32,000 nucleotides of DNA from Schaalia odontolytica (GCF_005696695.1 NZ_CP040006.1:240001-272000), one strand, 5' to 3'. Shown: positions 12,478 through 29,086, counted from the first letter of the stretch. The notes: generated from the sequence alone by a model not told the origin. Numbers and translations are program-made.

Positions 12478-12480
12478 CTG

Positions 12481-13180: not shown

Positions 13181-13206
13181 CGCCACGTCACAGCGTCCAG
13201 TGCGCA

Positions 13207-13399: not shown

Positions 13400-13507
13400 T
13401 GCGCCGTGCGCTTGGTAGCTGGGCCCCTCTACTGGCAGTGTTAACCCTTTAATGCGCAGCTAAACCCACCTAGTGGTAGCTGGGCGTGGCTGCCCACGCT
13501 CCACCAG

Positions 13508-13586: not shown

Positions 13587-13695
13587 GTGACGGGCGGCCT
13601 GGTGATATGTCGTGTGCTGCGGACCAGCAGCCTCTGCGGGCGCTGCAGCCAGGCCCACGGGTCCTTCGAAGCCGTCGCGCCTCCCGGGATACGAC

Positions 13696-13725
13696 AGAGG
13701 CGGGACCCCGAAGGATCCCGCCTCT
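13696..13725 (-). terminator. GC-rich hairpin, possibly the sodA terminator
   Basis: AGAGGCGGGA (13696-13705) pairs with TCCCGCCTCT (13716-13725) across a 10-nt loop. It lies about 110 nt downstream of the sodA stop on the minus strand and has no clear U-tract. Confidence 0.3.
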
Positions 13726-13833
13726 CGTTGCGTGCGGTGGCCGCGCCGTCGGCGCCGATAAGACAGCGCTAGAAACTCAGTGCCCGAGCCTCAGCTCGGT
13801 AACAACGGCCGCGGTCGTGTCAGGCACGAACGG

Positions 13834-17422: not shown

Positions 17423-17439
17423 GCGTTGTTGTGTGCGTG

Positions 17440-17471
17440 GGCGCCGCGGCTGAAGGGGCAGCCGCGGCGCC
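17440..17471 (+). terminator. Strong stem-loop terminator after the methyltransferase gene
   Basis: GGCGCCGCGGCTG (17440-17452), loop AAGGGG, CAGCCGCGGCGCC (17459-17471). The stem is a perfect 13 bp. Confidence 0.65.
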
Positions 17472-17602: not shown

Positions 17603-18997
17603 ATGGACTACGAGCTGGCCTACCGATACGGTGCCCCCTCGCGCCTGGAAGAGGGCGGCGGCCTTGCGCTGGCGACCTCGGGAGGCTCGACCCCCGAGGG
17701 GGAGGCAGCGCATCCCTTTTTCTTTTCGGGCTTCATGGAGCGTCCCGACGTGGTGGCCGCCGGTCTGCTCGCGGTCGCACGTGTGGCGCGTACCCGCTTC
17801 TATGTGCCGCCGGGCATGGTCGTCGCGCCCGGCGGAGGCCTGACTCGTATCGGGATGCTCGACCCGGTCGTGACCAGCACGGCCGAGGGCCTGCGCTTCG
17901 AGTCCTTTAGCGTCTGCTGCGGCGTGTACGCGCGGCTCGACGTGGAGGCCTCGGCCCTGGACGCCACCCACTGCGCAGTCGGCGTGACCAACGTGGATGT
18001 TAATCAGCCGCTGCGTGCCGCCCTAGCGTCGCTGCGAGCTGGGGAGCCCCTGCACCTGGGTGTGGGCGAGGAGGGGCTGACGGCCACGACCCTGGACGAG
18101 GAGGTCACGGAAGAGAAGGTGCCGCTGTCCCTGCGCTGGCTCAAGGGATTCGCGGAGACACAGATGCTCTCCTCCGCGATGATGCCGCTGCATGCGTTGA
18201 ATACCGCGCAGGCGCGCGCCTTCATCCGAGGCCTGCCCAGGTCCAGCGCGACGGGCACGGTCATGTGGGCGGGGCGGGCCGTGCGCGGTCTGCGTTTGGG
18301 GACCCGGCCTGCGCCGGGGGCCGCGTGCGTCGCCGGCCCCGAGCGCCTGCGCGTGTTCGAGCCGCTTCTTCATCTCATCACCTCGCTTGAGGCCTACGGG
18401 CCTGATGTGGATGCTGGCAGCGAGCCGGTCGCTTCCCTGTGGGTCGCCCGCCTGCCCGGCGCGCGCCTCTCCATTGGGCTCAGCCCCGCCAAGTCGCGCG
18501 GCTTCTCGGGGGAGGGTGCGGTCCTGGCGTCCCTGGGAGATCCGCGCGTCGAGGAGGACGCGGATATGCTGTCCGCCCTGCTCTCCTTCGAGCCGCGCAT
18601 CGACACGCAGCTCATGGCCGCGCGCTCCGGACTGGCCCCCGACCGGGTGGCTGGCGGCCTGGCACTCCTGGCCTCGAGTGGTCAGGTTGGCTTCGACGTG
18701 ACTGAGGGGGCCTACTTTCACCGTCCTCTGCCCGTGCGTCCCGACGCCCTCACCGCTATGCATCCGCGCCTGGCAGGGGCGCGCACGCTCATTGAACGCG
18801 GTGCGGTCACCCACGAGGAGGGGGCGCGCTTCCGTGTCGCCTCGGGCGCAAACCGCTACCGGGTGGAGGTGCCCGCCGACCCCTACGCCATCGGCGAGTA
18901 CCGCTGCACGTGCCCGTGGTGGATGAAACATAGGGGTGGGCGGGGGCCATGCAAGCATGTCCTCGCCGTCTCCACGCTGATCAAGGAGGATCAATGA
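17603..18997 (+). CDS. SWIM zinc-finger family protein (464 aa), first gene of a three-gene operon
   Basis: ATG with a GAAGGAG Shine-Dalgarno. C-terminal CxC-x16-CxH SWIM signature (YRCTCPWWMKHRGGRGPCKHVLAV). High GC3. The stop TGA overlaps the next start (ATGA at 18994-18997). Confidence 0.85.
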   Translation: MDYELAYRYGAPSRLEEGGGLALATSGGSTPEGEAAHPFFFSGFMERPDVVAAGLLAVARVARTRFYVPPGMVVAPGGGLTRIGMLDPVVTSTAEGLRFESFSVCCGVYARLDVEASALDATHCAVGVTNVDVNQPLRAALASLRAGEPLHLGVGEEGLTATTLDEEVTEEKVPLSLRWLKGFAETQMLSSAMMPLHALNTAQARAFIRGLPRSSATGTVMWAGRAVRGLRLGTRPAPGAACVAGPERLRVFEPLLHLITSLEAYGPDVDAGSEPVASLWVARLPGARLSIGLSPAKSRGFSGEGAVLASLGDPRVEEDADMLSALLSFEPRIDTQLMAARSGLAPDRVAGGLALLASSGQVGFDVTEGAYFHRPLPVRPDALTAMHPRLAGARTLIERGAVTHEEGARFRVASGANRYRVEVPADPYAIGEYRCTCPWWMKHRGGRGPCKHVLAVSTLIKEDQ

Positions 18998-21453
18998 GTC
19001 AGAAGTCGGATCCGTTCCGGCGGCCAAAAACGCTGGATGAATGTGCGGACTTTTGGAGACTGCACCTGTGGACCGAGGGCCACCCAGGCGAGTGGACACT
19101 CGATCAGGTCTACGCGCGCATGCTCGAGATTAACGAGGGCCCGCCCACGGCCCATGACCTGGACGTCAGCTCCAGGGTCACCGGTGCTTGGCTCAAGGGG
19201 ATCGGATTCTTGCGCCTGGCCGAACTGCACGGCGACCTGGCCCTCGACCACGATCAGCGGTACCTGACGGCGCTCATCGGCCTCGAACCCGGACTGCAGC
19301 TGCCCCTCATGCGTGCCGATCGGGAGCTGCGCGAGGAGCTGGTGTGGGGGATGCTGCGCCAGGAAGGTAACCGCGGCGTGTCGCTGTCCTCCTCCGACCG
19401 TTCTGCCTCGATGGGCTCGGAGCAAACGCCCGGCTGGTCGCGCACGTTCGAAGCGAGCGTCAATGAGGGGCTCATCGAACGTGATCGTCTGCTTGACGCC
19501 CTCCTGGAGATGCTGGCGGCCGACCTGCCCTCGGCACGTGCCGGGTGGTATTCGCGCACCCTGCGCCTGCTCGCCATGACCATTGACGAGGCCGAGGCGC
19601 GGCAGCCGACTCTGTGTGCCCTCATGTCGTCTCCCGTCGGGGCAACCGTGACCCTGGCGGTCGGGCACCTGTCCGCCCTCGCCAGGGCTGGTCGCCTCGA
19701 CCTGGAGCTGTTTGCGCGCAGCTGCGAGGGAGCGCTCATGGGGTCGAAGGCCAACGCACTCGCAGCCTTGACAATCCTGCGCGGTGGTCTCGAGGTCCTG
19801 AGTCCCGGCGGCATCGAACCCCTGTTGGCGATCGCGATGTCTTTCCCGCATGCGCAGGTGCAGGCTCTGGCCATCGAGCTGGCGAGTGACGCGCTGCGAT
19901 CGGGCCTCCTCGACTCCGCAGCGCTCGGCCGACTCCTGTCGGATGCGGAGTTGGACCCGCTCGTCGTCGCCACGCTCGACCTCCTCGACCCGGGGCACAC
20001 GGCGAATGGCCAGCCTGACCCCGGACCCGTCCCCGAGGAAGGTAGCGGTGGGCAGGCTCCCGCCGCCTTCTTGCCGCCTCCCCGTGAGGTGAACGACCTG
20101 GTTCCCATGAGCGCCGACGACGTGGTTGGTCGGGTCGGTGTCCTGGCGCAGGGCGCGCAGATGGGGCTCGAGTATGAGGCGCTGCTCGCGTTCCTGGCAT
20201 CCCCCGAGTACGACCCGAGTGCGCTGGAATCGTTGCGCCCGCTTGTGCGGCGCCTGACCACGCGCAGGTTTGGGTACGAGCGCATGCTCGGAACTCTCCT
20301 GCAGATAGCCCTCAATGGGGGAGGGGAGGGTGCTGAGAGCCCGCTGGCCGCTGGCACCGCCTGGTTGGAATCGGAGAACATGCCCACCCTCATGCGAGAG
20401 CGCATCATCGAGGTCGCGGGTCTGCTCGCACGCGGGCAGCGCTACCGCCTCCTGGCCACGCCCACCGACGACCGGGGAGCCGTGAATCCCCTGACGCTCG
20501 TGCGCCGTGCCCTGGACAACGGGGGCGCGACACCCCTTCCAGCCGACCTCACCCAGGCGCTGCTGCGCGTGGACACCGAGCATCCGGACTGCGCGGCCGC
20601 GCTCGTGCTCGTGGACGAGCGGGAGGCGGACCTGCCCGCCTCCGCCGTCGCCCGCATTCGCCTCGCCCTTCAAGGGGTGGTGCGCAGACGTGCCGAGGGC
20701 TACCTGTCCTCACTCTCCGTGACGTGGGAGGGGCGTCCCTCCTATGAGTCCGGGAAGCCCAAGGTCGCGCGAGACGGCTCGCCGATCTACGCATTTTTCT
20801 TCCCTCGCATCGTCGGCGTGGACACAGGTGCGACAGGACCCGAGCTGAGCGCGCTCGCGGATATTGCGAGTGCTTCGGGCGATTTTACTGCCCACCGCTA
20901 TCTCTACCCCGCGTCGGTGCGCCACTTCGCCGTCTGCCTGCTTGCCTCTCAGTGGTACGTGCTTGACCACACCCAGCTGACCTGTGAGTGCTACAGGGCC
21001 CTGTGCGAGCACGGCGGGCGCTGGGATTCGCTGTCCGCCCAGCTCCTTGGGCAGGCGATGGGCGAGCGCGAGGTCGAGTCGCGCGCGCTCGGCGTCGAGG
21101 CCCTGGCCGCCTTGGTGGCGCGCGGTGACCTCGCCTTCGACCAGGTTGTGTCTGGTTTCGAGGCCGTGGCGCACACCGTGAAACTGAACCGGTGGGCGCA
21201 GGCCTTCGGGGATCTGGGGGACGTGGACCCCCGCCTCGCGCTGGATCTGGCGCTCACGCTGCTGCCCGGGCTCGAGCGAGGGCGCACGGGCATCGGGCAG
21301 TTGCTGGGCGTCGTTACTGCACAGTACGCACGGGCGCAGGCCGAGGGATGGGCGCCGCCGCTCGGCGAGGAGTGTATCGGCTGGCTCGGCCTTTTCCGAG
21401 GGTCCTCACAGGCGGCCAAGTATGCGCGCACGCTGAAGGAGATGGGCCAATGA
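18994..21453 (+). CDS. Large (819 aa) Ala/Leu-rich, probably all-helical repeat protein of unknown function, SWIM-associated
   Basis: ATG at 18994 with AAGGAGGA immediately upstream and an ATGA overlap with the SWIM gene. Long uninterrupted frame with strong GC3 bias. I see no Walker, nuclease or other catalytic motif. The stop overlaps the next start (ATGA at 21450-21453). Confidence 0.8.
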   Translation: MSQKSDPFRRPKTLDECADFWRLHLWTEGHPGEWTLDQVYARMLEINEGPPTAHDLDVSSRVTGAWLKGIGFLRLAELHGDLALDHDQRYLTALIGLEPGLQLPLMRADRELREELVWGMLRQEGNRGVSLSSSDRSASMGSEQTPGWSRTFEASVNEGLIERDRLLDALLEMLAADLPSARAGWYSRTLRLLAMTIDEAEARQPTLCALMSSPVGATVTLAVGHLSALARAGRLDLELFARSCEGALMGSKANALAALTILRGGLEVLSPGGIEPLLAIAMSFPHAQVQALAIELASDALRSGLLDSAALGRLLSDAELDPLVVATLDLLDPGHTANGQPDPGPVPEEGSGGQAPAAFLPPPREVNDLVPMSADDVVGRVGVLAQGAQMGLEYEALLAFLASPEYDPSALESLRPLVRRLTTRRFGYERMLGTLLQIALNGGGEGAESPLAAGTAWLESENMPTLMRERIIEVAGLLARGQRYRLLATPTDDRGAVNPLTLVRRALDNGGATPLPADLTQALLRVDTEHPDCAAALVLVDEREADLPASAVARIRLALQGVVRRRAEGYLSSLSVTWEGRPSYESGKPKVARDGSPIYAFFFPRIVGVDTGATGPELSALADIASASGDFTAHRYLYPASVRHFAVCLLASQWYVLDHTQLTCECYRALCEHGGRWDSLSAQLLGQAMGEREVESRALGVEALAALVARGDLAFDQVVSGFEAVAHTVKLNRWAQAFGDLGDVDPRLALDLALTLLPGLERGRTGIGQLLGVVTAQYARAQAEGWAPPLGEECIGWLGLFRGSSQAAKYARTLKEMGQ

Positions 21454-24050
21454 CCACCCCCATGACACTGGCCGAGCGCCGCGCGGCCCTCAAACGCCTC
21501 CTCGCCGCCGGGGAGAGGACAATCGACGCCTACGAGCGGGTGTTGGAGGGGGCCTCAGAGAAGGATCGGCGCTCCCTCTTCAAGTCCGTGCCCTTTGTGC
21601 GCCTCGTCCCGCCAGCCGCCGAGCGGGCGGAAGCCGTCCCCGAGGACACGGTGTGCATGTGCGCGTTCCTGCGCGCAGCCCTGGCCGGGAGCGATGACGC
21701 CGGCGACGACTACGGAGTTCGTTGGTCGGGCCGCAGCGGAGGCGATCCTCGCGAGGGAGCGGACCTGGATCGGCTGCTCGCCGCCCACAGGTGCGGCGCG
21801 GCCGGGCGGAGCAGCAAGTGGCTCGAGGAGGCAGCCGGGAGTCCCGGAGGCATTGGCTTCTGGCACACCTACCGCTCCCTCCTGGCCGAGCGTGGAGCGT
21901 ACCTGACGTCTGCGCCCTCCCTGGAGTACTTCGCGCGCAGGATCATTCCCGCACCCCACCCCACTTCGGATGAGACTCGACTCTTCTTCGAGAAGAACCC
22001 GACCTTCCTCGACCACGAGTTCTGGCAGCTCTTCCGCGTCGAGGGTGCCCTGCCCGGCTCGGCGCTCTTCGTGTGGATGTACCGCGAGGACCCCTCTGCG
22101 CCCGGCGGTGACTTCGAGCGCCTACACAGCCAGGATCTCATCTGCTACATGGCGACGCACCTACCGCATCTGCGGCCCCGCATCCTGTCCGAATGTCTGG
22201 CCGCGCATCGGCGCGACTTTTCCGCATACAACAGTCGTGCCTTCTCGCTGGCCTGGGAGGCGCTTGAACCCACGCGCGAGGAAAAGCTCGAGGCAGCCTC
22301 GGACCTCATCGCCCTGCTTGGGGTCCAGCCCTCGCAGACGGTCACGCTGGCGCAGAAGGCTCTCCTTGGCCTCGTCGGGGAGCTCACGGTAGAGCAGGTG
22401 GGCGCGCTCGTACAGGTCAGCGCTCAGGTCCTTGCCCGCACCGAAAAGAAGCTGCTGCGCGCTCACCTGCGCCTGCTTGCCGCCCTCGTCAAGGCCCGTC
22501 CCGGGTGCGCGACCGCCGTCAGTGACGTGGTCGCTGAGGCTGAGTTCCCCCTCGACCTGCGAGATCGCGCCGCCACGCTCGTCGTGGCCCCTGATACTTC
22601 CGGAGACTCCGTGGACGAGGCCGGGGCCGGGCCTGCGGGGACGGCCACCTCCGACGCGAGCACCCAGGGAAGCGAACCCGGGGGAGGGACCCAGGCCTCG
22701 TGGACGTTCCCGGACACGCCCGCCGCGGACCTACCGCGCACCTCGCGCACCGCTGAGCTGCCCGACGATAACGACGCGGTCGTCGCTGCGTTGCACGCCC
22801 TCTTTGAGGACGCGGCCGCGGGCGCCGCCCTGCCCGCGCTCCTGATGCGCATCAGTGGCGAGGGCATCGAGCTGACGGAGGCCGACAAGGCGCTGCTCGC
22901 CGCGTACTGGAAGAGCGCGCCCAACTGGAAGGGCGCCAACCAGCTGTCCTACCTGGCCTCACGGCTCCTGCGCGACGTGGAGGTGAAGGACGCACCCGAG
23001 GCAGGTCACTTCCGCGGCTACCGGCGCAAGGGCAGCGAATGGGAGCAACACCGCGGCCCAGTCCAGCTCCTGCACGAACAGCTGCGCGTCGCATTGCGCG
23101 ACAAGCCCTACGACAAGCCGAACGGTCAGGACATGTACCGCTTCGACCCCATCCTGACCGCACCGCTGGAACCGATCCACCCGCAGTGGGAACGTCAGAT
23201 CATTCGAGCCGCCTACCAGAAGCCCGTCAGGGTTGTGCGCGGTGAGTACAAGAAGACCGACGACATGCATGAGACGTGGGTGATCCCCGGGCAGAGCCCG
23301 GCCACGGGTGCCGACTCGCTCACCCAGGCCCTCACCAACGTCGCCGGCGTCGCCCCCGAGTTCACCGGGCGCCTCCTGGAATCGGGGGACTACCGGTCGA
23401 GCGGCGTCGCCTACGCGTGGGCGGCCTGGGCGCTCCAGCACAACCCGGACATTCTGGCCGCCCACGCGATGCCCGTCCTCCAGGGTGCGTTCTTCAAGTT
23501 CCCGCAGGTCATCACCGCCTTCGAGGTGATAGTGCGCGCACTGGGACAGGGATGGCGGGCGCCGGGCGCGCCCACCTACTCGGCCCTGGCGTGGGCATCC
23601 ACCGCCGCCCAGGCCAACTACCGGGCGATCACCGCCGAGGCTATCGCGGGTCTCGCCGATACCGGCCGCTTCGACCCCGCCGCCATGGCCGAGGAGATCG
23701 GCTACCTGATGCGCAACGGGTGGTTCGGGCCCGGGAGGGTCACCCAGACACTCAGCGACTGCGCGTCCGTCTCTGCCCTGGCCGGGTATCGCGTCGCCCA
23801 GACGATCACCGCCGTGCTGCCCGCGCTGGCCGGTGTCAGAGGAGCAAATGGCATGGTCGAGGTGCTGGTGGCGCTCGCGGGCGACTACGGCATGAGGGTG
23901 AGCGTCCCCGATGAGATGCGCCCCAAGATGAAAGGATCAAGCGCGATGGCTAAGGCGCTGCGCGCGCTTGACGCGCTGCCTGATGCCCCGACTGATCTCG
24001 CGTGCGAGGCGGCTGAGGCACTCGATGCAGTCCGAGTGCGGCAGGGGTAG
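21450..24050 (+). CDS. Large (866 aa) helical protein of unknown function, apparent paralogue of the preceding gene
   Basis: ATG at 21450 with a GAAGGAG Shine-Dalgarno 8 nt upstream and an ATGA overlap. Its segment QTVTLAQKALLGLVGELTVEQVGALV...LLRAHLRLLAAL resembles ATVTLAVGHLSALARAGRLDLELFAR...ANALAALTIL in the preceding protein. There is a central acidic/Gly/Thr-rich linker. The last ~35 codons are duplicated at 25687 onward. Confidence 0.8.
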   Translation: MTTPMTLAERRAALKRLLAAGERTIDAYERVLEGASEKDRRSLFKSVPFVRLVPPAAERAEAVPEDTVCMCAFLRAALAGSDDAGDDYGVRWSGRSGGDPREGADLDRLLAAHRCGAAGRSSKWLEEAAGSPGGIGFWHTYRSLLAERGAYLTSAPSLEYFARRIIPAPHPTSDETRLFFEKNPTFLDHEFWQLFRVEGALPGSALFVWMYREDPSAPGGDFERLHSQDLICYMATHLPHLRPRILSECLAAHRRDFSAYNSRAFSLAWEALEPTREEKLEAASDLIALLGVQPSQTVTLAQKALLGLVGELTVEQVGALVQVSAQVLARTEKKLLRAHLRLLAALVKARPGCATAVSDVVAEAEFPLDLRDRAATLVVAPDTSGDSVDEAGAGPAGTATSDASTQGSEPGGGTQASWTFPDTPAADLPRTSRTAELPDDNDAVVAALHALFEDAAAGAALPALLMRISGEGIELTEADKALLAAYWKSAPNWKGANQLSYLASRLLRDVEVKDAPEAGHFRGYRRKGSEWEQHRGPVQLLHEQLRVALRDKPYDKPNGQDMYRFDPILTAPLEPIHPQWERQIIRAAYQKPVRVVRGEYKKTDDMHETWVIPGQSPATGADSLTQALTNVAGVAPEFTGRLLESGDYRSSGVAYAWAAWALQHNPDILAAHAMPVLQGAFFKFPQVITAFEVIVRALGQGWRAPGAPTYSALAWASTAAQANYRAITAEAIAGLADTGRFDPAAMAEEIGYLMRNGWFGPGRVTQTLSDCASVSALAGYRVAQTITAVLPALAGVRGANGMVEVLVALAGDYGMRVSVPDEMRPKMKGSSAMAKALRALDALPDAPTDLACEAAEALDAVRVRQG
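23945..24012 (+). repeat. Direct repeat copy 1 (inside the 3' end of the 866-aa gene)
   Basis: 62/68 identical to 25687-25754. The 44-bp core TGCGCGCGCTTGACGCGCTGCCTGATGCCCCGACTGATCTCGCG (23959-24002) is perfect. Confidence 0.9.
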
Positions 24051-24082
24051 ATCCGCGTCGGGTGTCTCAGGTGCGTGGGTTG

Positions 24083-24349
24083 CTACTGGCCGTAGTGGAA
24101 GCGGCAGGAAATGATCCAGAGGGCTTTGCCGTCGTCGCTGATCTGGTAGATCAGGCGGTGCCGTGAGTCGATTCGGCGTGACCAGTACCCCGAGAACTCG
24201 TAGCGAAGAGGTTCAGGTTTGCCGATCCCCTCGTTCCCGTTGCGCTGGATGTCCTTGATGAGGGCGTTAATGCGCTTGAGGGTCTTGCGATCCTCGAACT
24301 GCCACCAGATGTAGTCGTTCCAGGCTTCCTCGTCCCACGTGATGTGCAT
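24083..24349 (-). CDS. yoeB: YoeB/Txe-family toxin (ribosome-dependent mRNA interferase)
   Basis: MHITWDEEAWNDYIWWQFEDRKTLKRINALIKDIQRNGNEGIGKPEPLRYEFSGYWSRRIDSRHRLIYQI....ISCRFHY is a textbook YoeB sequence. It starts 2 nt after the yefM stop. Confidence 0.93.
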   Translation of the reverse strand: MHITWDEEAWNDYIWWQFEDRKTLKRINALIKDIQRNGNEGIGKPEPLRYEFSGYWSRRIDSRHRLIYQISDDGKALWIISCRFHYGQ

Positions 24350-24351
24350 GA

Positions 24352-24615
24352 TCAGTCCTCGTCGAGCTCAATGAGGTCATGGACGACGCCCTCGCCAGCG
24401 CGGTGACGTGCGATCGATTTGCGCAGGTGGCGGGCGTTCGCGGGGGACTGCATGAGGTAGACGGTCTCCATGAGGGACTCGTACTCGTCGAGGGCGATGA
24501 TGACGGCGCTCTCGTGGCCCTGTCGGGTGATGACGATTTCCTCGCGGTCGTTGACGACCTGGTCGAGGACCTCGGCGTAGCGTGCGCGCGACTCGGTGTA
24601 GGTCATGGTCTTCAT
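24352..24615 (-). CDS. yefM: YefM/Phd-family antitoxin
   Basis: MKTMTYTESRARYAEVLDQVVNDREEIVITRQGHESAVIIALDEYESLMETVYLMQSPANARHL matches the YefM/Phd family. GAGGAG Shine-Dalgarno upstream. Confidence 0.93.
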   Translation of the reverse strand: MKTMTYTESRARYAEVLDQVVNDREEIVITRQGHESAVIIALDEYESLMETVYLMQSPANARHLRKSIARHRAGEGVVHDLIELDED

Positions 24616-24636
24616 GGGTGCTCCTCTGCTCGCCTA

Positions 24637-24675
24637 TGTACAGAACATTGTACAGTATTTGAGGGTGCGTGTCTC
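24637..24675 (-). promoter_or_regulatory. yefM-yoeB promoter with a paired TGTACA operator
   Basis: TGTACA (24637-24642) and TGTACA (24649-24654) are 12 bp centre to centre. As I recall, this is the arrangement of the E. coli yefM-yoeB operator. On the minus strand a -10 TACAAT (complement 24647-24652) overlaps the operator, and GAGACA (complement 24670-24675) lies 17 nt upstream. Confidence 0.6.
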
Positions 24676-24820
24676 TAGTCGGCTGGTAACGTGCGGGAGT
24701 ACTACCTCCGTGCGGGGCCAGGTACTGCGGAACTGCTCGCACGGGACTGCTGACGCGGGACTGCTGGCACGGGGTCTGCATCGCGGCGTCCTTCACCTGG
24801 GAGGGAGAGGCCTGCACGTC

Positions 24821-24921
24821 CTGGATAGGTAGCGCCGATCTGGATAGGTAGTGCTGATCTGGATAGGTTATTTTCCTATCCAGAACGTCATAACCTATCC
24901 AGTTCGTGGTTTCCTATCCAC
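24821..24921. repeat. Iteron-like array of three direct then three inverted copies of CTGGATAGG, each set phased at 19 bp
   Basis: CTGGATAGGTA at 24821, 24840 and 24859. CCTATCCAG / CCTATCCAC at 24875, 24894 and 24913. The central perfect palindrome is CTGGATAGG-TTATTTT-CCTATCCAG (24859-24883). Confidence 0.9.
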
Positions 24922-24947
24922 TTCGTGGCCGCCCGTGCCCATACATG

Positions 24948-25018
24948 TCCGCACGTGGGCCCTTTCATCCGCACGTGGGCCCTTTCATCCGCACGTGGGC
25001 CCTTTCAACCGCACGGGG
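24948..25018 (+). repeat. Tandem 20-bp repeat, 3.5 copies
   Basis: TCCGCACGTGGGCCCTTTCA at 24948, 24968 and 24988, plus a partial ACCGCACGGGG at 25008. Each unit contains a CACGTG palindrome and GGGCCC. Confidence 0.9.
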
Positions 25019-25081
25019 GTAACGCCGCCTACGCGCAGGTCATGGGGTTTCCGTGCGTATCGAGGGGTTAACGTGCAGTCC

Positions 25082-25507
25082 TTAGTGGCCGCGGTGGCGA
25101 GCTTTCGCTTTCAGGCGGGCGAGGCGGCGTTTCTCTTCAGCTTTCTCACGTTTCTTCTGCTTGGTCGTGGAAGCTCGTTCTCGTGCCATGCGTTCGCGTT
25201 CTGCTTGAATCGCTGCCTGTGATGCAGTGGAAGGAAGCGCACGGCGGGCGAGGTGGGAAGCTTGGCGCTGTGCGCGCTTGGGGTTGTGGTGCGTCGCCTG
25301 ACGTTGGGCCATATCGGAAGCCCAAGCGACCTCGTCGAGGCGGCACAGGAGAGCGTTAGCGTGAGCGAGAAGGAACTCGTAGAACTCCGCGTCTGAGGGC
25401 TGTGCGCCGAACACGATTCTAACGGCGCGAAAACGGTCGGCCTCGTGGCGCTCAATGACACCGACCCAGAACTGACCATCGAAATATAGTGTGGACTCCG
25501 TCTTCAT
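25082..25507 (-). CDS. DUF2992 (YjdF-like) family protein with a highly basic C-terminal tail, 141 aa
   Basis: MKTESTLYFDGQFWVGVIERHEADRFRAVRIVFGAQPSDAEFYEFLL matches my recollection of the DUF2992 N-terminal signature (FDGQFWVG). ATG at complement 25505-25507 with GGAG upstream. The Lys/Arg-rich tail is KQKKREKAEEKRRLARLKAKARHRGH. Confidence 0.7.
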   Translation of the reverse strand: MKTESTLYFDGQFWVGVIERHEADRFRAVRIVFGAQPSDAEFYEFLLAHANALLCRLDEVAWASDMAQRQATHHNPKRAQRQASHLARRALPSTASQAAIQAERERMARERASTTKQKKREKAEEKRRLARLKAKARHRGH

Positions 25508-25686
25508 TACTCGTCTCCAGGTACACCAGGGTGGACCCGATGACGCTGGATTCTGCTCGGGGCAGCGACGGATGCGAGGCATCGCCCAGACTTCCTACTG
25601 GACTGTGCGGTTCGCGTATCAGGACTGACGACTCATTATACGTCCCGTGTTCCAGGGTGTTGCTACTGGACGATCGGCTTGCCGCC

Positions 25687-25754
25687 GATGGACAAGGCCT
25701 TGCGCGCGCTTGACGCGCTGCCTGATGCCCCGACTGATCTCGCGCGCGAAGCGG
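25687..25754 (+). repeat. Direct repeat copy 2 (relic or alternative 3' end of the 866-aa gene)
   Basis: The 44-bp perfect core at 25701-25744 is identical to 23959-24002. In frame it reads MDKALRALDALPDAPTDLAREAGAALSAIVSRRADGGGPTSG*, against MAKALRALDALPDAPTDLACEAAEALDAVRVRQG* at copy 1. Confidence 0.9.
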
Positions 25755-25769
25755 GGGCTGCCCTCAGCG

Positions 25770-27479
25770 CTATCGTCTCTCGTCGAGCCGATGGAGGCGG
25801 CCCCACCAGCGGGTGATCAGCCACTCGTCGTGCGTTGAGATAACCAGGGTTCCCTCCCACTCGCGCATCGCCTCTTCGAGGGACTCCAGGGCGTTCAGGT
25901 CCAGGTAGTTCGTGGGCTCATCGATCACGAGGATCTGAGCGTCGGCCCGCGCCGCGAACGCCAGCTGAGCCCTGCGTTGGTTTCCCGCGGAGAGCTCACC
26001 GAGCGGCCGGTTCCACGCCGCTGGGGGAACGAATCCCTTCCCGGCCTCCCCGATGCCCAGGTACCACGCATTCTCGGGGATGAGGGGGTCGCCGGGCCGC
26101 GGGAGCACCTGGGGCACGAGGACGACCCCGGAGGCGGCATCGATGCATCCGTGCGCCCCGCTGGGGGCCCCGCGTGCGATCCACTCCAGCAGGGTGGTCT
26201 TGCCCGACCCGTTGGGCCCCGCGACGAGGAGGTGCTCGCCGTAGCGCGCCTCGAAGGAGGTTGGCGCGAGGCGTCCCTCCACCGACGCGCCGCGGACGGC
26301 CAGGGCGATACCCATTGCGTGTGGGTGCGGTGATGTCCCGCCCGTGGTGGTCCTGATGGGGTGGGGGAAAGAGAACTCGCCCTGGTCATAGCGGGGCTTG
26401 GGGACTTCGTGTGCCGCGAGAACCGACAGCCTCCGGGAGTCGTCGTTGATGCGCCTCTTCGACACAGTTTGGGCGCGGTCGGCGTAGTACTTCTGCGCCA
26501 TCCGTATCTCGGTGCGGGGTTTGAAGCGCGCATGCCCCACCACCGTCGAATCCCGCTGGTGAGATACGAGTCGGCGTTTCTCTGCCTGCTGATCCGCATG
26601 GATCGCGGTGTGCCGCGAGCGTGCGGCGGCCTTGTCGCGCAGGTAGTCCGAGTAGGATCCTCCTACCCTGTACGCCCCGAAGTCCGCGGGCTCTCCCTTG
26701 GAGATTGCCACCGCCCGCCACGGTGTCGGATCCAGGTCGAGCAGCGCCGTCGCCGTGCGCTCAATGAAGGCCCGGTCGTGGCTGGTCATGAGCACCGGCC
26801 CCTGCCAGTTGTCGATTGTGTGTGCTAGGTGCTCGCGCCCGTCAGTGTCCAGGTGGTTCGTCGGTTCGTCCAGGACGAGGGCCTCTGGTCGATCAACGAG
26901 GGTGAGGGCCAGGCGCAGGCGGGCACACTGCCCTGGGGAGAGGGAGGCGAGGGGGCGGGAGCAGTCGAGGCCTCCTAGGTCGAGGGCCTCCAGGGTCTGT
27001 TCGAGGCGCGTGTCGATGGTCCACGCGTCCCGCGCGATCATCGCCGCTAGGACGCGGTCGTACTCCGCTTCGTCGCCCGGTGAGGGGTCCCGGGCGAGGT
27101 GCTCGGTGAGGAAGTCGAAGCGCGCCGCCAGCCCGCGGGTGCCTGACGTGGCGGCATCGATGAGCTGTGCGACGGTGCGGGACTCCCTGTCCCCCGCGAG
27201 CGGAGGACGGGACGCCAGAGGGGCTCCCGGTGCTGACCGCATGGCCGCGGGCCAATGAATTGGGGGAACTAGCTGGGGCGCGGAGAGCGTCGGGCCGGCG
27301 ATCGTTCCGGAGTCCGGCTGGAGTCGGCCCGCTGCGAGGGCCAGCAGTGTTGACTTGCCGATCCCGTTCGGGCCGACAACTACGAGGCGGTCGGCGGGCC
27401 CACACGTGAAGGAGACGTTAGTGAGGACGGGCAGCGTGCCGTAGGAAAAGAAGACGTGGGAAAAGACAATCGTGGACAT
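25770..27479 (-). CDS. ABC-F family ATPase (two ABC domains, no TM domain; translation factor or ribosome-protection type)
   Basis: Two Walker A motifs (GPNGIGKST, GPNGSGKTT), two signature motifs (LSPGQCARLRLAL, LSAGNQRRAQLAF), two Walker B motifs (LVLDEPTNHLD, LVIDEPTNYLD) and a basic inter-domain linker. I start it at MSTIVFSHV (complement 27477-27479). Confidence 0.85.
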   Translation of the reverse strand: MSTIVFSHVFFSYGTLPVLTNVSFTCGPADRLVVVGPNGIGKSTLLALAAGRLQPDSGTIAGPTLSAPQLVPPIHWPAAMRSAPGAPLASRPPLAGDRESRTVAQLIDAATSGTRGLAARFDFLTEHLARDPSPGDEAEYDRVLAAMIARDAWTIDTRLEQTLEALDLGGLDCSRPLASLSPGQCARLRLALTLVDRPEALVLDEPTNHLDTDGREHLAHTIDNWQGPVLMTSHDRAFIERTATALLDLDPTPWRAVAISKGEPADFGAYRVGGSYSDYLRDKAAARSRHTAIHADQQAEKRRLVSHQRDSTVVGHARFKPRTEIRMAQKYYADRAQTVSKRRINDDSRRLSVLAAHEVPKPRYDQGEFSFPHPIRTTTGGTSPHPHAMGIALAVRGASVEGRLAPTSFEARYGEHLLVAGPNGSGKTTLLEWIARGAPSGAHGCIDAASGVVLVPQVLPRPGDPLIPENAWYLGIGEAGKGFVPPAAWNRPLGELSAGNQRRAQLAFAARADAQILVIDEPTNYLDLNALESLEEAMREWEGTLVISTHDEWLITRWWGRLHRLDERR

Positions 27480-27534
27480 AATGCACCTTGGGGAGGAGGG
27501 GCAGGGAGGCATTATGTCAGGAGTCCATGGGGAC

Positions 27535-27540
27535 ATTATA
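27535..27540 (-). promoter_or_regulatory. Candidate -10 box (perfect TATAAT) for the ABC-F gene
   Basis: The minus strand reads GTTGCCGATATAATGTCC, about 55 nt upstream of the start codon. There is no convincing -35. Confidence 0.3.
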
Positions 27541-27725: not shown

Positions 27726-27995
27726 TCAGAACAGCAGCGGTGCGAAGCCAGCCACCGGGGCGAGGAACGCGGCGCCACCCAGCAGAGCGGTCTTGATGTA
27801 GGGGAAGGCGACGAAGGCGGCGATGATGAGGACCACGAGCAGCGCCATGAGGATGAGGTTGTTGCGCTGACGCTTGTACTGCTCGGGCGTCAGCTCCTCC
27901 TTCTTGCGGATGAGCGGGGCCTCGCCGTGGACGGAACCAGTGTTGCCGCCGGGCTTTGCGCCCTCGTTCTCGGTCGGGAAGTGCTGGTCGGACAT
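27726..27995 (-). CDS. Small (89 aa) membrane protein with a polar N-terminus and a hydrophobic C-terminal half
   Basis: ATG with a GGAG Shine-Dalgarno (CCAGTAGGAGACCACCATG). Very strong GC3 bias. LILMALLVVLIIAAFVAFPYI is a TM helix. It starts 29 nt after the DUF1266 gene stop and is probably co-transcribed with it. Confidence 0.65.
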   Translation of the reverse strand: MSDQHFPTENEGAKPGGNTGSVHGEAPLIRKKEELTPEQYKRQRNNLILMALLVVLIIAAFVAFPYIKTALLGGAAFLAPVAGFAPLLF

Positions 27996-28024: not shown

Positions 28025-29086
28025 TCAATTGACGATCGGCTTGCCGCCGATGGACATGGGGGCGCGGGTGCGGGCCTGTGCATCGAGGTCCTTCTCCCAC
28101 GCGGAGGCCTCCTCCCAGTTGACGGAAGACAGCAGGTGCAGAGCACCCATCTCGCGCAGTGCGTCGAGGAGGATGAAGCGCGGGGCGGGGTAGGGGGCGT
28201 TCCATGGGATCACGGTCCACAGGCCATTCTTGCCGACGAGGAACTCGCCGCGGTTACGGTCGTGTAGGTCGTTGGCAGCGGTCTGCGCATCGCCCTCGGC
28301 GGCCCACAGCCAGCGGGTGACGCGGAAGGCCTCCCACGTCTCCTCCCACGAGGAGTAGGAGAACTGCAGAGCCCGGTTGATGACCGCGAGGGTATCCCAG
28401 GCCTCGTCCTCGCTCAGCCAGCCCTGGCCGGCACCCGCGCGCGTCAGGTTCGCGGCGCGAATGAGGTCCCACGCGGCGAAATCCAGGGCCTGGATGCCGC
28501 GGTCATTGTCCAGGAAACGGCGGATGCGCCAGCGACGCTCCCAGTCCTCCATCGACGAGTCCGCGGTCTTACTCAGGCGGGCGATCTCCTTGTCTGCCCA
28601 CCCGGGCCTTGCGCAGCGCTCGCGCAGGGCAGCGAAATCCTCGCGGTGTCCGGCGCGCAAGAGCGAATAAATCTGGCGGATCAGGCTCTCGCGATCGGTG
28701 ATACCCCAGTCGCGGTCGAGCATGCCCTTCATTCCGGCGGGATCCGACAGCTTCAGCTGGTTAACGACCTCGTCGTTGCACAATGCGTACACCATGGCGG
28801 GAGCCAGCAGGCGTGCCTGCGGATCGGCGGCCATGTCCTCGCGCTTGCCGCGCAGCTTCGGGGTGTGGTGCTCGTTGAGCTTGTTCCACTCGCCTTCCTT
28901 GCCTGCCTTGCGCACGTCGCGTGGCGCGGGGACGGCGCCCTTCGAGCGGGCGGCTGCCTGCTTGAACGTATTCGCAGCTAGGGCCACGATGACGCAGCCG
29001 ATCGCGAACCAGATCGGGAACGGAATGTCGGAGAGGAAATTCTGGAGCACAGACTGATTGTGCCCGATGGAAAGCAGATCACACAA
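28025..29086 (-). CDS. DUF1266 domain protein with an N-terminal TM helix
   Basis: Core segment DWGITDRESLIRQIYSLL...LDFAAWDLIRAANLTRAGAGQGWLSEDEAWDTLAVINRALQFSYSSWEETWEAF..TRWLW matches the DUF1266 pattern (AWD..R...L.R.....G.L.E.EAW......A...Q..F.SWEE). The start is uncertain: the track start at 29086 is a TTG, and GTG at 29050 is an alternative. Confidence 0.7.
   Translation of the reverse strand: MCDLLSIGHNQSVLQNFLSDIPFPIWFAIGCVIVALAANTFKQAAARSKGAVPAPRDVRKAGKEGEWNKLNEHHTPKLRGKREDMAADPQARLLAPAMVYALCNDEVVNQLKLSDPAGMKGMLDRDWGITDRESLIRQIYSLLRAGHREDFAALRERCARPGWADKEIARLSKTADSSMEDWERRWRIRRFLDNDRGIQALDFAAWDLIRAANLTRAGAGQGWLSEDEAWDTLAVINRALQFSYSSWEETWEAFRVTRWLWAAEGDAQTAANDLHDRNRGEFLVGKNGLWTVIPWNAPYPAPRFILLDALREMGALHLLSSVNWEEASAWEKDLDAQARTRAPMSIGGKPIVN

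What the first reader, a model, noticed from the sequence alone, without database searches (positions are those of the whole stretch)
23945..25754. 1.74-kb toxin-antitoxin/iteron cassette bracketed by a 44-bp perfect direct repeat that duplicates the 3' end of the operon's last gene
Positions 23959-24002 and 25701-25744 are identical (44/44), or 62/68 with flanks, at an offset of 1742 bp. Copy 1 encodes the present C-terminus of the 866-aa protein (..AKALRALDALPDAPTDLACEAAEALDAVRVRQG*). Copy 2, read in the same frame, encodes a related but different tail (..DKALRALDALPDAPTDLAREAGAALSAIVSRRADGGGPTSG*) that would run convergently into the ABC-F gene. This is the pattern left by an element that integrates into a gene's 3' end and carries a surrogate end (attL/attR-like). 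Between the repeats lie yoeB-yefM, two iteron-like arrays and a DUF2992 gene, but no integrase, transposase or Rep gene. The cassette is therefore either a decayed remnant or a small element mobilised in trans. A second short direct repeat, GTTGCTACTGG (24079-24089 and 25658-25668), lies just inside each long repeat.
Basis: seen in the sequence. Interest (0 to 1): 0.65.

Follow-up and report, generated by a model that had tools for sequence, protein, structure and literature searches.

The report
Leftover gene end from haplotype merging
The 44-bp direct repeat is real, but it is the leftover original end of a gene, stranded when two alternative gene blocks of a very variable chromosome slot in oral Schaalia/Pauljensenia bacteria were joined by ordinary recombination; it is not the attachment site of a mobile element.

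Summary
In detail: 23959-24002 equals 25701-25744 (44/44; 69/80 with flanks). Copy 2 is the ancestral 3' end of the 866-aa gene. Five relatives, including a close one (L036) and Schaalia meyeri, have the predicted empty site, where the gene ends ...SAIVSRRADGGGPTSG* and overlaps the ABC ATPase gene. The att-site or mobile-element reading is not supported. The 1.7-kb block (yoeB-yefM, three repeat arrays, a YjdF/DUF2992 gene) carries pieces of its former neighbours at both edges. On the left is a piece of the 3' end of the methyltransferase gene that lies 6 kb upstream; this piece supplies the gene's present stop codon. On the right are 34 bp of the 3' end of the DUF1266 gene that lies 2.3 kb downstream. 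I predicted, and then found, genomes in which the block sits directly between those two genes with no 866-aa operon. Across about 90 loci the right junction differs: the stranded gene remnant ranges from 19 bp to more than 350 bp, or includes scraps of the whole upstream operon, and each junction sits at a short microhomology. No recombinase is present, and the block was not found at any other site. The best explanation is illegitimate plus homologous recombination between alternative haplotypes, followed by deletional decay. The perfect 44-bp stretch is a later conversion or exchange patch. This is ordinary genome-plasticity scarring.

The parts
15731..17422 (+). Methyltransferase gene (MT; DUF7059 + MTS domains). 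Its last ~70 bp and its terminator (about 17350-17470) are the source of the relic now fused to the end of the 866-aa gene in the relatives and, in reduced form, in the window.
   Evidence: Pfam. Sequence. Alignment A2 shows that the g866-to-yoeB interval of L002 and L062 is collinear with the MT-3'-end-to-yoeB interval of B0 locus L081. BLAST finds MT[1622-1692] copies after g866 in L002, L032, L033, L035, L038-L042, L044-L048, L062 and L068.
17603..24050 (+). SWIM / DUF6493 (834 aa) / DUF6493-DUF7825 (866 aa, 'g866') operon. This is island A. It is absent from the slot in the B0 genomes.
   Evidence: Pfam. PADLOC SWIM_XIII hit, E 1.7e-44. B0 loci L081, L083 and L088 have MT directly next to yoeB.
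23944..24023 (+). Repeat copy 1 (perfect core 23959-24002), inside the working 3' end of g866.
24024..24050 (+). Surrogate last 8 codons and stop of g866 (..DAVRVRQG*). The first ~17 bp (GATGCAGTCCGAGTGCG) are what remains in the window of the MT 3'-end relic that is seen at full length in L002-type relatives.
   Evidence: Within the window alone the similarity is weak; the assignment rests on the intermediate forms in relatives.
24051..24082 (.). Spacer 'post1' of unknown origin. It replaces the ~180-bp MT'/terminator segment found in other haplotypes.
24083..24349 (-). yoeB toxin gene (88 aa).
   Evidence: Pfam YoeB_toxin, E 1.2e-34.
24352..24615 (-). yefM antitoxin gene (87 aa).
   Evidence: Pfam PhdYeFM_antitox, E 8.6e-25.
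24637..24675 (-). Upstream control region of yefM-yoeB: the palindrome TGTACA-N6-TGTACA (24637-24654) overlaps a promoter-like site (24647-24675).
   Evidence: Sequence. Promoter scan. That TGTACA repeats are the YefM-YoeB operator in E. coli is from my own knowledge and was not tested here.
24728..25019 (.). Three tandem arrays ('iterons'): 14 bp x3.3 (24728-24773); a 19-bp-spaced 3 direct + 3 inverted CTGGATAGG array (24815-24927); 20 bp x3.6 TCCGCACGTGGGCCCTTTCA (24948-25019). In relatives this segment is present, absent, or replaced by a DsrE-like ORF.
25082..25507 (-). YjdF-family (DUF2992) gene, 141 aa.
   Evidence: Pfam, E 4.8e-36. Plasmid homologues are annotated 'YjdF family protein'.
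25508..25662 (-). Leader/promoter region of the DUF2992 gene ('pre2'). It is 89-100% identical (mostly 96% or more) across haplotypes whose neighbouring genes differ by 5-30%.
   Evidence: No Rfam family. Fold z-score -1.5.
25663..25696 (-). Relic of the 3' end of a DUF1266 gene (..GGKPIVQ*). It matches the real gene end at 28025-28058.
   Evidence: In B-type loci (L003, L004, L008 and others) a full DUF1266 gene starts exactly here.
25686..25816 (+). Relic of the ancestral 3' end of g866. It comprises repeat copy 2 (25686-25765, perfect core 25701-25744) and the old tail, which runs to the stop at 25814-25816 and overlaps the ABC ATPase CDS by 47 nt. It is joined to the DUF1266 relic at the microhomology CGATGG(A/C)CA.
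25770..27536 (-). It is part of island A. In the empty-site genomes its 3' end overlaps the ancestral g866 end.
   Evidence: Pfam..
27726..27995 (-). Small 89-aa gene with no Pfam family, linked to the ABC ATPase gene.
28025..29086 (-). Full DUF1266 gene, the right-hand conserved flank of the slot. Its 3' end is the source sequence type of the relic at 25663-25696.
   Evidence: Pfam, E 2.5e-26..

Best explanation
The repeat is a recombination scar, not a functional site. In oral Schaalia/Pauljensenia, the chromosomal slot between a methyltransferase gene (MT) and a DUF1266 gene holds one of two alternative gene blocks. Island A is SWIM-g834-g866 running convergently into the ABC ATPase gene and an 89-aa gene. 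Island B0 is yoeB-yefM, the repeat arrays (or a DsrE-like gene) and a YjdF/DUF2992 gene. The window carries a merge of the two.

Inferred path, step 1: A-type DNA (MT...g866) recombined into a B0 chromosome. One crossover was homologous, in MT. The other was illegitimate and joined the g866 tail, about 15 codons before its stop, to the last ~70 bp of MT. This gave g866 a frameshifted MT-derived surrogate end, directly followed by yoeB.

Inferred path, step 2: A-type DNA carrying (SWIM...)g866-ABC ATPase-s89-DUF1266 recombined in. The homologous crossover was in DUF1266 and the illegitimate joint was in the recipient's DUF1266 3' end. This left a DUF1266 3' relic and a second, redundant copy of the operon next to the ABC ATPase gene.

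Inferred path, step 3: the redundant copy was whittled down by deletions between short microhomologies. In the window's lineage the deletion ran between CGATGG in the DUF1266 relic and CGATGG in the g866 tail. Only the last 80 bp before the ABC ATPase stop codon survive, plus the 47 bp that are also ABC ATPase coding sequence.

Inferred path, step 4: a short gene-conversion or homologous-exchange patch later made 44 bp of the relic identical to the working copy.

Shown here: the relics, the junction variants, both parental haplotypes and the empty sites. Inferred: the order of events and the recombination pathway. The two 44-bp copies could still support rare RecA-type loop-out of the 1.7-kb block, which would restore an empty-site gene, but no dedicated mobility machinery is involved.
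For: (1) Empty sites. L036 has a full g866 about 85% identical in DNA to the window's, with a near-identical ABC ATPase allele (97% over the 110 bp on the contig). Its g866 ends ..AREAGDALSAIVSRRADGGGPTSG*, the same as the window's copy-2 frame, and overlaps the ABC ATPase CDS by 47 nt. S. meyeri L009 and L017, L018 and L029 are likewise empty.
(2) MT relic. The g866-to-yoeB interval of L002 and L062 is collinear with the MT-3'-end/terminator-to-yoeB interval. A 1-bp frameshift there creates the g866 stop.
(3) A prediction confirmed. From (2) I predicted genomes with MT directly convergent on yoeB and no g866 operon. A look-up with the window's exact YefM protein found them: L081, L083 and L088 show MT next to yoeB, and L085 has the same block up to yoeB, where its sequence ends. 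The order is MT, yoeB, yefM, DsrE-like gene or arrays, DUF2992, DUF1266. Flanks are 94-96% identical to the window.
(4) DUF1266 relic. 25669-25696 matches 28031-28058 (28/29), with 0 matches expected by chance. In B-type loci a full DUF1266 gene starts at that exact point.
(5) Decay series left of the ABC ATPase gene. SWIM', g834' and tail scraps in L041/L042. About 350 bp of g866 in L053, L062, L068 and L078-L080. About 170 bp in L054. 80 bp in the window, L001, L010, L016 and L035. 19 bp in L002, L007, L012, L020, L023, L026, L045 and L075. Arrays joined directly to the tail in L013, L071, L077 and L067.
(6) L041 and L062 share the same left breakpoint in the DUF1266 relic and the same GCGCGT microhomology, but have different right partners. 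This is what nested deletions from one long ancestor would give. Other junctions also sit at microhomologies: CGATGG(A/C)CA, GCGGG and CTGCGG.
(7) Loci with the window's exact junction (L010, L035) carry a different allele inside copy 2, and that allele is not identical to their own copy 1. Outside the 44-bp block, the window's copy 2 matches the L036/L010 type. So the perfect block is a secondary patch.
(8) There is no recombinase in the window or in neighbouring genes of relatives. The block was seen only in this slot.
(9) The block has lower GC (0.59-0.63) than its flanks (0.66-0.73), which fits a separate origin for island B0.
(10) Precedent. Homology-facilitated illegitimate recombination uses 3-10 bp microhomologies, and single-crossover events duplicate part of the homologous locus (PMC3240628). 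The same mechanism has been invoked for displaced gene ends and orphan arrays in Vibrio T6SS and Rhs loci (PMC5361080).
Against: The order and number of events cannot be fixed from the sequences. B0 could itself derive from the B-type by deletion between MT and its relic. The different junctions could be independent joinings rather than nested deletions. Homology-facilitated illegitimate recombination usually deletes recipient DNA rather than duplicating it (PMC3240628), so each proposed step needs the less common outcome with a small duplication. I have no information on natural competence or conjugative chromosomal transfer in these bacteria. Within the window itself the MT relic is reduced to ~17 bp, and the 32-bp spacer 24051-24082 has no identified source. 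Some loci are MAG or metagenome contigs that may contain assembly errors (for example L015 and L077).
Confidence: 0.8

Rival explanations
1. A small integrative element (yoeB-yefM, iterons, DUF2992) inserts site-specifically into the 3' end of g866, carries a surrogate gene end, and is bounded by attL/attR (the 44-bp repeat). It is either decayed or mobilised in trans by an integrase encoded elsewhere.
For: A perfect 44-bp direct repeat brackets the block. Copy 2 is the ancestral gene end, and empty sites exist. The block has lower GC than its flanks. It contains a TA module, which is typical of mobile DNA, and the nearest TA relatives at the DNA level are on Dietzia and Rhodococcus plasmids at about 72% identity.
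Against: There is no recombinase in the block, in the window, or in neighbouring genes of relatives. The surrogate end is a relic of the chromosomal MT gene, and the right edge is a relic of the chromosomal DUF1266 gene. There are at least 8 different junctions next to the ABC ATPase gene. The 44-bp identity is absent in relatives with the same junction. The block was found only in this slot, and in B0 genomes it sits there with no g866 target at all. There are no hits to phage, viral or plasmid collections beyond the TA genes.
Confidence: 0.04
2. Same class of event, different path. A non-replicating circular DNA, formed by illegitimate joining of a B-type chromosomal segment, carried part of the SWIM-g834-g866 operon plus the TA/DUF2992 block. 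It integrated into an A-type chromosome by one homologous (Campbell-type) crossover. That duplicated the homologous operon segment on both sides of the block, and the right-hand copy then decayed.
For: A single crossover of a circle produces exactly this topology: the left copy truncated at its 3' end and the right copy truncated at its 5' end. Duplications of 109-950 bp of the homologous locus were the commonest outcome in the E. coli experiments of PMC3240628. The scraps of SWIM, g834 and g866 left of the ABC ATPase gene imply that a long second operon copy once existed.
Against: It still needs two earlier illegitimate joints (g866|MT' and DUF1266'|SWIM). No circle or plasmid with these sequences is known. 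The present data cannot distinguish it from two linear homology-facilitated events.
Confidence: 0.2
3. The different remnants next to the ABC ATPase gene are products of several independent joinings of A-type and B-type DNA, a recurrent illegitimate-recombination hotspot at convergent gene ends, rather than one merge followed by nested deletions.
For: Both parental haplotypes co-circulate at 85-96% identity, with clear mosaicism. For example, L001 is 100% identical to the window in g866 but only 92-96% identical from the ABC ATPase gene onward. In L048, L052 and L074 the ABC ATPase gene sits between the arrays and DUF2992, which deletions alone cannot produce. L035 has a tandem duplication of the TA unit.
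Against: L041 and L062 share the same left breakpoint and the same microhomology motif. All other junction types (J1-J6) can be derived by simple deletions from one long form, and the DUF1266 relic always starts at the same stop codon.
Confidence: 0.25
4. The repeat is an assembly artefact, or a chance similarity between coding sequences.
For: None beyond the general caveat that many of the comparison loci are metagenome contigs.
Against: Zero matches were expected in shuffles. The same structure appears in at least 6 independent assemblies, including a 1.17-Mb isolate contig.
Confidence: 0.01

Closest known systems
Homology-facilitated illegitimate recombination (HFIR) and related single-crossover duplications (Acinetobacter, S. 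pneumoniae, P. stutzeri, E. coli; PMC3240628 and the references cited in PMC5361080)
   Same: One conserved flank acts as a homologous anchor (MT on the left, DUF1266 on the right). The other joint is illegitimate, at a microhomology of 2-9 bp. The result is foreign or alternative DNA inserted with no recombinase and no fixed site.
   Different: Experimental HFIR usually deletes recipient DNA. Here each joint left a small duplication of a gene's 3' end, an outcome seen experimentally mainly with single-crossover circles. The mechanism is inferred from scars only and was not demonstrated in these bacteria.
C-terminal displacement and orphan 3' fragments in Rhs, CDI and T6SS effector-immunity loci (Kirchberger et al. 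2017, PMC5361080, and the references therein to Jackson et al. 2009)
   Same: A working gene receives a new 3' end, and the old 3' end is pushed downstream, where it persists as an orphan fragment. Different strains show mosaic arrays, and no integrase is involved.
   Different: In those systems the displaced ends are functional toxin domains with immunity genes, and the displacement is adaptive. Here the displaced end is about 40 codons with no partner gene, the new end is frameshifted junk from a methyltransferase gene, and the orphan is visibly decaying.
Integrative elements that target a gene's 3' end and restore it (tRNA/tmRNA-targeting islands and prophages with attL/attR). This comparison rests on my own knowledge.
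   Same: A direct repeat brackets an insert, a duplicated gene end is present, and empty sites exist in relatives.
   Different: There is no integrase. The repeat length and junction are not fixed among carriers. The insert's edges carry relics of chromosomal neighbour genes. The insert was not found at other sites.
Chromosomal type II toxin-antitoxin yefM-yoeB modules
   Same: The module has YoeB_toxin and PhdYeFM domains, an antitoxin-first operon with a 2-bp gap, and a TGTACA-N6-TGTACA palindrome over the promoter.
   Different: Nothing unusual in the module itself. YoeB carries two extra C-terminal residues (GQ) compared with E. coli YoeB (recalled from memory). Relatives show two allelic TA types, a tandem duplication (L035) and loss of the module (L039, L047).

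Membership tests
Recombinase-mediated integrative element (island / prophage / IME) with attL-attR | A tyrosine or serine recombinase (or transposase) is encoded in or next to the element. | tested here: not met
   Pfam scans of all block ORFs and of the other window ORFs I scanned found none. The only hit is a sub-threshold, evidently spurious IS110 match inside a BcrAD ATPase-family protein. The called genes around the block in L081-L086 include no recombinase.
Recombinase-mediated integrative element (island / prophage / IME) with attL-attR | The same att core and the same junctions occur in all genomes that carry the element. | tested here: not met
   There are at least 8 different right junctions. 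The g866 remnant ranges from 19 bp to more than 350 bp or to operon scraps. The left junction comes in three or more forms: MT' + terminator, post1, and shorter versions. The 44-bp identity is absent in L010 and L035, which have the same junction.
Recombinase-mediated integrative element (island / prophage / IME) with attL-attR | Empty sites with a single copy of the repeat exist in relatives. | tested here: met
   L036, L009, L017, L018 and L029. Ordinary recombination scars predict this equally well.
Recombinase-mediated integrative element (island / prophage / IME) with attL-attR | The element is found at other sites, on other replicons, or as a circle. | tested here: not met
   Exact-protein look-ups for YefM and DUF2992 return only this slot. 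Plasmid, phage and viral searches find only generic TA or distant YjdF homologues. Circle formation cannot be tested with these tools.
Iteron-type plasmid replicon or partition site | A Rep or Par protein gene lies next to the repeats, and there is similarity to known plasmid origins. | tested here: not met
   No Rep or Par domain was found. The arrays have no plasmid or phage DNA matches. The arrays are dispensable, being absent or replaced in many haplotypes. A homologous CTGGATAGG array lies in a different intergenic region in S. meyeri.
Type II TA system yefM-yoeB | A YoeB-family toxin lies downstream of a Phd/YefM antitoxin in one operon. | tested here: met
   Pfam E 1.2e-34 and 8.6e-25. 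The genes are 2 bp apart on the same strand. An operator-like palindrome and a promoter-like site are present. Toxicity and neutralisation cannot be tested here.
Homology-facilitated illegitimate recombination product | The junctions sit at short microhomologies, with a homologous anchor on one side. | tested here: met
   CGATGG(A/C)CA for the window's junction, GCGGG for J2, GCGCGT(CG) for L041/L062 and CTGCGG for L035. Conserved MT and DUF1266 flanks are present in both parental haplotypes.
Homology-facilitated illegitimate recombination product | Both parental arrangements exist in the population. | tested here: met
   A-type: L036, L009, L017 and L018. B0-type: L081, L083, L085 and L088.
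Homology-facilitated illegitimate recombination product | DNA uptake or transfer and the recombination event are demonstrated in the organism. | not testable with these tools
   This needs transformation or mating experiments between A-type and B0-type Schaalia strains.
YjdF family (DUF2992) with yjdF riboswitch | A DUF2992 domain, with a yjdF-motif RNA in the leader. | tested here: inconclusive
   The domain is present (E 4.8e-36; homologues annotated YjdF). No Rfam family matched the leader at E up to 5, and the leader's fold is not exceptional (z -1.5). The protein therefore belongs to the family, but the riboswitch association was not found here.

The most novel reading that the evidence does not exclude
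The slot between MT and DUF1266 might be more than passively plastic. The palindromic CTGGATAGG array and the neighbouring tandem arrays recur at a second intergenic site near a tRNA gene and sodA in relatives. They could be binding sites for an unidentified, trans-encoded recombination, partition or transfer protein, which would make the yoeB-yefM/array/YjdF block a non-autonomous mobilisable module. In that case the recurrent joints at convergent gene ends would reflect a targeted process rather than random illegitimate recombination.
Probability: 0.05. Interest if true: 0.6.

Novelty: new member of a known kind. Interest (0 to 1): 0.25.

Why it matters
The main value is as a caution and a worked example. 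A perfect direct repeat that duplicates a gene's 3' end around a TA-bearing, low-GC block looks like attL/attR, yet comparison with relatives shows it is a scar of ordinary recombination between alternative haplotypes. The locus preserves both parental arrangements, the merged forms and a graded series of decay products. It could therefore serve as a natural record of how illegitimate and homologous recombination assemble and then erode accessory gene blocks in oral Actinomycetaceae. It also shows how a gene can acquire a new stop codon from a neighbour's relic. It does not reveal a new type of element or mechanism.

Tried and rejected
(1) Plasmid or phage origin of the block. Distant BLAST of 24003-25700 against PLSDB hit only the TA genes (Dietzia and Rhodococcus, about 72% identity), and there were no phage hits. 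Exact scans of IMG/VR for both array motifs and a DUF2992 protein scan found nothing. tblastn with DUF2992 found only distant (under 40% identity) YjdF-family genes in Firmicutes plasmids and Streptococcus prophages.
(2) A structured RNA or riboswitch in the block or in the DUF2992 leader. There was no Rfam hit above noise; the palindromic array gives spurious miRNA-like hits. The leader's fold z-score is -1.5.
(3) The 11-mer GTTGCTACTGG as a target-site duplication. Rejected. It is the last codon, stop codon and 4 nt of yoeB at one end and of the DUF1266 relic at the other, and it is not conserved at both ends in relatives.
(4) 'The TA module is always retained, so addiction explains the pattern of deletions.' Rejected. 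L039 and L047 keep the MT relic and the arrays but lack the TA module.
(5) The source of the 32-bp spacer 24051-24082. Not found. It has only a partial resemblance to a DUF1266-downstream sequence in L010.
(6) A defence-system assignment for island A. Only the SWIM protein has a specific PADLOC hit (SWIM_XIII). The ATPase and methyltransferase hits to mad3, mad8 and mad2 look like generic domain similarity. Not pursued.
(7) L015 (A. bouchesdurhonensis) shows scrambled operon fragments, either an assembly problem or heavy rearrangement. I did not use it as evidence.

Full report
**1. Observation**

The repeat is real. Positions 23959-24002 and 25701-25744 are identical (44/44), and in register the match extends to 80 nt at 86% (23944-24023 versus 25686-25765). 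In 100 dinucleotide-preserving shuffles of the window, none gave two matches even with three mismatches allowed. Copy 1 encodes the present C-terminus of the 866-aa protein..LACEAAEALDAVRVRQG*. Copy 2, in the same frame, reads ..LAREAGAALSAIVSRRADGGGPTSG*. Its stop is at 25814-25816, inside the convergent ABC ATPase gene, whose stop codon is at 25770-25772.

Between the copies lie:
- yoeB and yefM;
- three tandem arrays (14 bp x3.3; a 19-bp-spaced 3+3 palindromic CTGGATAGG array; 20 bp x3.6);
- a DUF2992 gene.

No recombinase, transposase or Rep domain was found in the block or in the other window ORFs I scanned. The block has lower GC (0.59-0.63) than its flanks (0.66-0.73).

**2.

Immediately left of copy 2, 25669-25696 matches 28031-28058 (28/29, 26 exact, 0 expected by chance). 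That second site is the 3' end of the DUF1266 gene on the minus strand. The 'copy 2' region is therefore a chimera: a DUF1266 3' relic (25663-25696..GGKPIVQ*) joined to a g866 3' relic. The two overlap at the motif CGATGG(A/C)CA.

**3. Relatives**

The window is 100% identical to GCA_001462375.1 contig LLVT01000001.1. It belongs to the oral Schaalia/Pauljensenia (Actinomyces odontolyticus) group. I collected 15 loci from species-representative genomes, 65 from metagenomes and 12 through exact-protein look-ups. I mapped the window's modules onto them with BLAST. A few of these loci are the same contig retrieved from two collections (for example L004 and L060, L007 and L024, L012 and L021).

The region downstream of g866 is extremely variable.

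- *Empty sites.* In S. meyeri (L009), in L017, L018 and L029, and in the close relative L036, the g866 gene runs directly into the ABC ATPase gene. In L036, g866 is full length and about 85% identical in DNA to the window's, and its ABC ATPase allele is near-identical (97% over the 110 bp on the contig). Its C-terminus..AREAGDALSAIVSRRADGGGPTSG*, is the window's copy-2 reading, and it overlaps the ABC ATPase CDS by 47 nt.

- *B-type loci.* About 19 loci (for example L003, L004, L008, L030, L037, L059 and L065) have g866, the TA module, (in most) the arrays, DUF2992 and its leader, and then a full DUF1266 gene starting exactly where the window's DUF1266 relic starts. They lack the ABC ATPase gene.

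- *Merged loci.* These carry both the block and the ABC ATPase gene, but with different joints:
  - window, L001, L016, L010, L035, L087: 34-bp DUF1266 relic + 80-bp g866 relic;
  - L002, L007, L012, L020, L023, L026, L045, L075: 50 bp + 19 bp, joined at GCGGG;
  - L054: about 49 bp + about 170 bp;
  - L053, L062, L068, L078-L080: 136 bp + about 350 bp of g866 with an internal deletion;
  - L041, L042: 136 bp + scraps of SWIM and g834 + the tail;
  - L013, L071, L077, L086: the palindromic array joined directly to the tail;
  - L067: the 14-bp array joined to the last 19 bp of the tail;
  - L048, L052, L074: the ABC ATPase gene lies between the arrays and DUF2992.

- *Further variants.* L005, L011, L031 and L063 have lost everything between the yefM promoter and the 89-aa gene. 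L039 and L047 have lost the TA module. L035 has a tandem duplication of the TA unit.

**4. The surrogate end is a relic of another chromosomal gene**

In L002-type relatives, the sequence from the last 8 codons of g866 to yoeB (about 180 bp) is a copy of three things: the last ~70 bp of the methyltransferase gene MT (window 15731-17422, ending ..EIEAPLRDLIRWGFLTY*), its terminator hairpin, and the next ~110 bp. A 1-bp frameshift creates the g866 stop. The window's version shares only the first ~17 bp (GATGCAGTCCGAGTGCG). It then has a 32-bp spacer of unknown origin.

From this relic I predicted a haplotype in which MT lies directly convergent on yoeB, with no g866 operon. A look-up of contigs that encode the window's exact YefM protein found it. 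L081, L083 and L088 have MT next to yoeB, and L085 shows the same block up to yoeB, where its sequence ends. The order is MT, yoeB, yefM, a DsrE-like gene or the arrays, DUF2992 with its leader, then DUF1266. The flanks are 94-96% identical to the window, and there is no SWIM-g834-g866 operon and no ABC ATPase gene. Alignment A2 shows that the L002 g866-to-yoeB interval is collinear with the B0 MT-to-yoeB interval all the way to the yoeB stop codon.

**5. Interpretation**

The slot between MT and DUF1266 holds two alternative islands:
- island A: SWIM-g834-g866, the ABC ATPase gene and the 89-aa gene. This is the state in S. meyeri;
- island B0: the TA module, arrays or DsrE-like gene, and YjdF/DUF2992.

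The window carries a merge of the two. The block is edged on the left by an MT relic and on the right by a DUF1266 relic, so it came from a B0-type chromosome together with bits of its neighbours. It was not brought in by a site-specific recombinase. The g866 relic next to the ABC ATPase gene is the last vestige of a second, ABC ATPase-linked copy of the operon.

L041/L042 and L062/L068 share the same left breakpoint in the DUF1266 relic (..GCGCAGCGCGT) but continue into SWIM (..CTGCGCGTGTTCGAG) and g866 (..CTGCGCGTCGC) respectively. That is the expected result of a deletion between two copies of a GCGCGT microhomology in a longer ancestor. The window's junction (CGATGG in the DUF1266 relic joined to CGATGG in the g866 tail), the GCGGG junction, and the array-to-tail junctions can all be derived in the same way. 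The remnant in L062 is closest to the empty-site allele of L036 (85%) and is more than 15% diverged from all working copies, which fits a decaying pseudogene.

**6. Why 44/44?**

L010 and L035 have the window's exact junction, but their copy 2 carries a different allele (..GCACTCGACGCTCTGCCGGATGCTCCGACGGG..) that is not identical to their own copy 1. Outside the 44-bp block the window's copy 2 matches the L036/L010 type. Inside the block it equals the window's own copy 1. The perfect stretch is therefore a secondary patch, from gene conversion from copy 1 or from homologous exchange with another strain. It is not a conserved recombination core.

**7. Mechanism and precedents**

The joints sit at 2-9 bp microhomologies next to conserved homologous flanks. 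That is the signature of homology-facilitated illegitimate recombination. Duplication of part of the homologous locus is the typical outcome of single-crossover integration of circles (PMC3240628). The same logic has been used to explain displaced gene ends and orphan arrays in Vibrio T6SS and Rhs loci (PMC5361080).

The exact path cannot be resolved from the sequences. It could be two linear events, one Campbell-type event, or recurrent independent joinings. B0 could itself arise from the B-type by deletion between MT and its relic, but a B0-like source is still needed to explain the relics. The two repeat copies could support rare RecA-type loop-out, which would regenerate an empty-site gene. 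L036 could be either ancestral or such a revertant.

**8. The 'iterons'**

The arrays are not linked to any Rep or Par gene and have no plasmid or phage matches. They are dispensable: in many haplotypes they are absent, truncated, or replaced by a DsrE-like ORF. A homologous CTGGATAGG array, with the same central GGATAGGTTATTnnCCTATCC palindrome, the same ~19-bp spacing and diverged spacers, lies in a different intergenic region next to sodA in S. meyeri. An array like the 20-bp one lies in the corresponding region of L007. The conserved 9-mers with variable spacers suggest a protein-binding array of unknown function. I did not find evidence that it drives the rearrangements.

**9. Verdict**

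This is a new, well-documented instance of a known kind of event: recombination scars in a hypervariable chromosomal slot. Interest is low to moderate.

Noticed in passing
window 25663-25696 versus 28025-28058: A third direct repeat: a 34-bp relic of the DUF1266 gene's 3' end sits directly left of repeat copy 2. The two copies flank the ABC ATPase gene and the 89-aa gene. Recombination between them would delete those genes and give the B-type arrangement seen in about 19 relatives.
   Followed up: yes
window 24024-24050, with source at 17340-17470; L002:12573-12695; L081:6595-6700: The present stop codon and last ~8 codons of the 866-aa gene derive from a frameshifted copy of the 3' end of the methyltransferase gene 6 kb upstream. 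In many relatives that gene's terminator hairpin was carried along too.
   Followed up: yes
window 17603-24050; L081, L083, L088: The SWIM / DUF6493 / DUF6493-DUF7825 operon is itself accessory. It is absent from the slot in genomes whose flanks are 94-96% identical. The SWIM protein matches the PADLOC model SWIM_XIII (E 1.7e-44). The operon's function is unknown, and no paper in the searched library mentions DUF6493.
   Followed up: partly
window 24815-24927; L009:2380-2505 (S. meyeri, next to sodA); L007:1670-1830: The palindromic array of CTGGATAGG 9-mers (3 direct + 3 inverted, ~19-bp spacing) has a homologue at a different intergenic site in S. meyeri, with conserved 9-mers and diverged spacers. 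An array like the 20-bp CCGCACGTGGGCCC one sits in the tRNA-sodA intergenic region of L007. These are probably protein-binding arrays of unknown function.
   Followed up: partly
window 12480-13780: A 1.3-kb stretch after a tRNA gene (12388-12474) has no convincing gene and is rich in repeats. Examples are CTGAAACCGCTGTCGCCTTTGC x3 at 42-bp spacing (12929-13034) with inverted partners near 13120-13190, and GGGTTAACGTGCGC x2 (13511, 13573), which also occurs at 25064 in the block.
   Followed up: no
window 25508-25662 (minus strand): The leader/promoter region of the YjdF/DUF2992 gene is 89-100% identical (mostly 96% or more) across haplotypes whose neighbouring genes differ by 5-30%. It has no Rfam match (including the yjdF motif) and only an unexceptional predicted fold (z -1.5). 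The reason for this conservation is unexplained.
   Followed up: partly
L035:8097-9860: A tandem duplication of an ~890-bp unit (g866 tail piece, MT relic, yoeB, yefM and the start of the array region), joined at the microhomology CTGCGG. It gives two TA copies. The contig has 153x coverage, so it is probably real.
   Followed up: partly
L039:8183-8370; L047:8183-8582: Haplotypes that keep the MT relic and the arrays but have lost yoeB-yefM. The TA module is therefore not indispensable at this locus.
   Followed up: partly
L081:5553-5885; also L006, L010, L015, L043: In some haplotypes the array region between yefM and DUF2992 is replaced by about 430 bp that encode a 110-aa DsrE/DsrF-like protein (Pfam E 9.6e-6).
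   Followed up: partly
L007, L009, L010, L012, L041, L059 downstream of the first DUF1266 gene; L081:553-3716: The DUF1266 genes occur as 1-3 tandem, strongly diverged paralogues (66-95% identity). In the B0 loci they are followed by three ~520-aa genes with no Pfam hit instead of the topoisomerase-side flank. The variable zone therefore extends beyond the slot analysed here.
   Followed up: no
window 24051-24082: A 32-bp spacer between the g866 stop and the yoeB stop has no identified source. Its right part (GGTGCGTGGGTTGCTACTGG) resembles the sequence downstream of a DUF1266 allele in L010 (GGTGCGTGTTGCTACTGG).
   Followed up: partly
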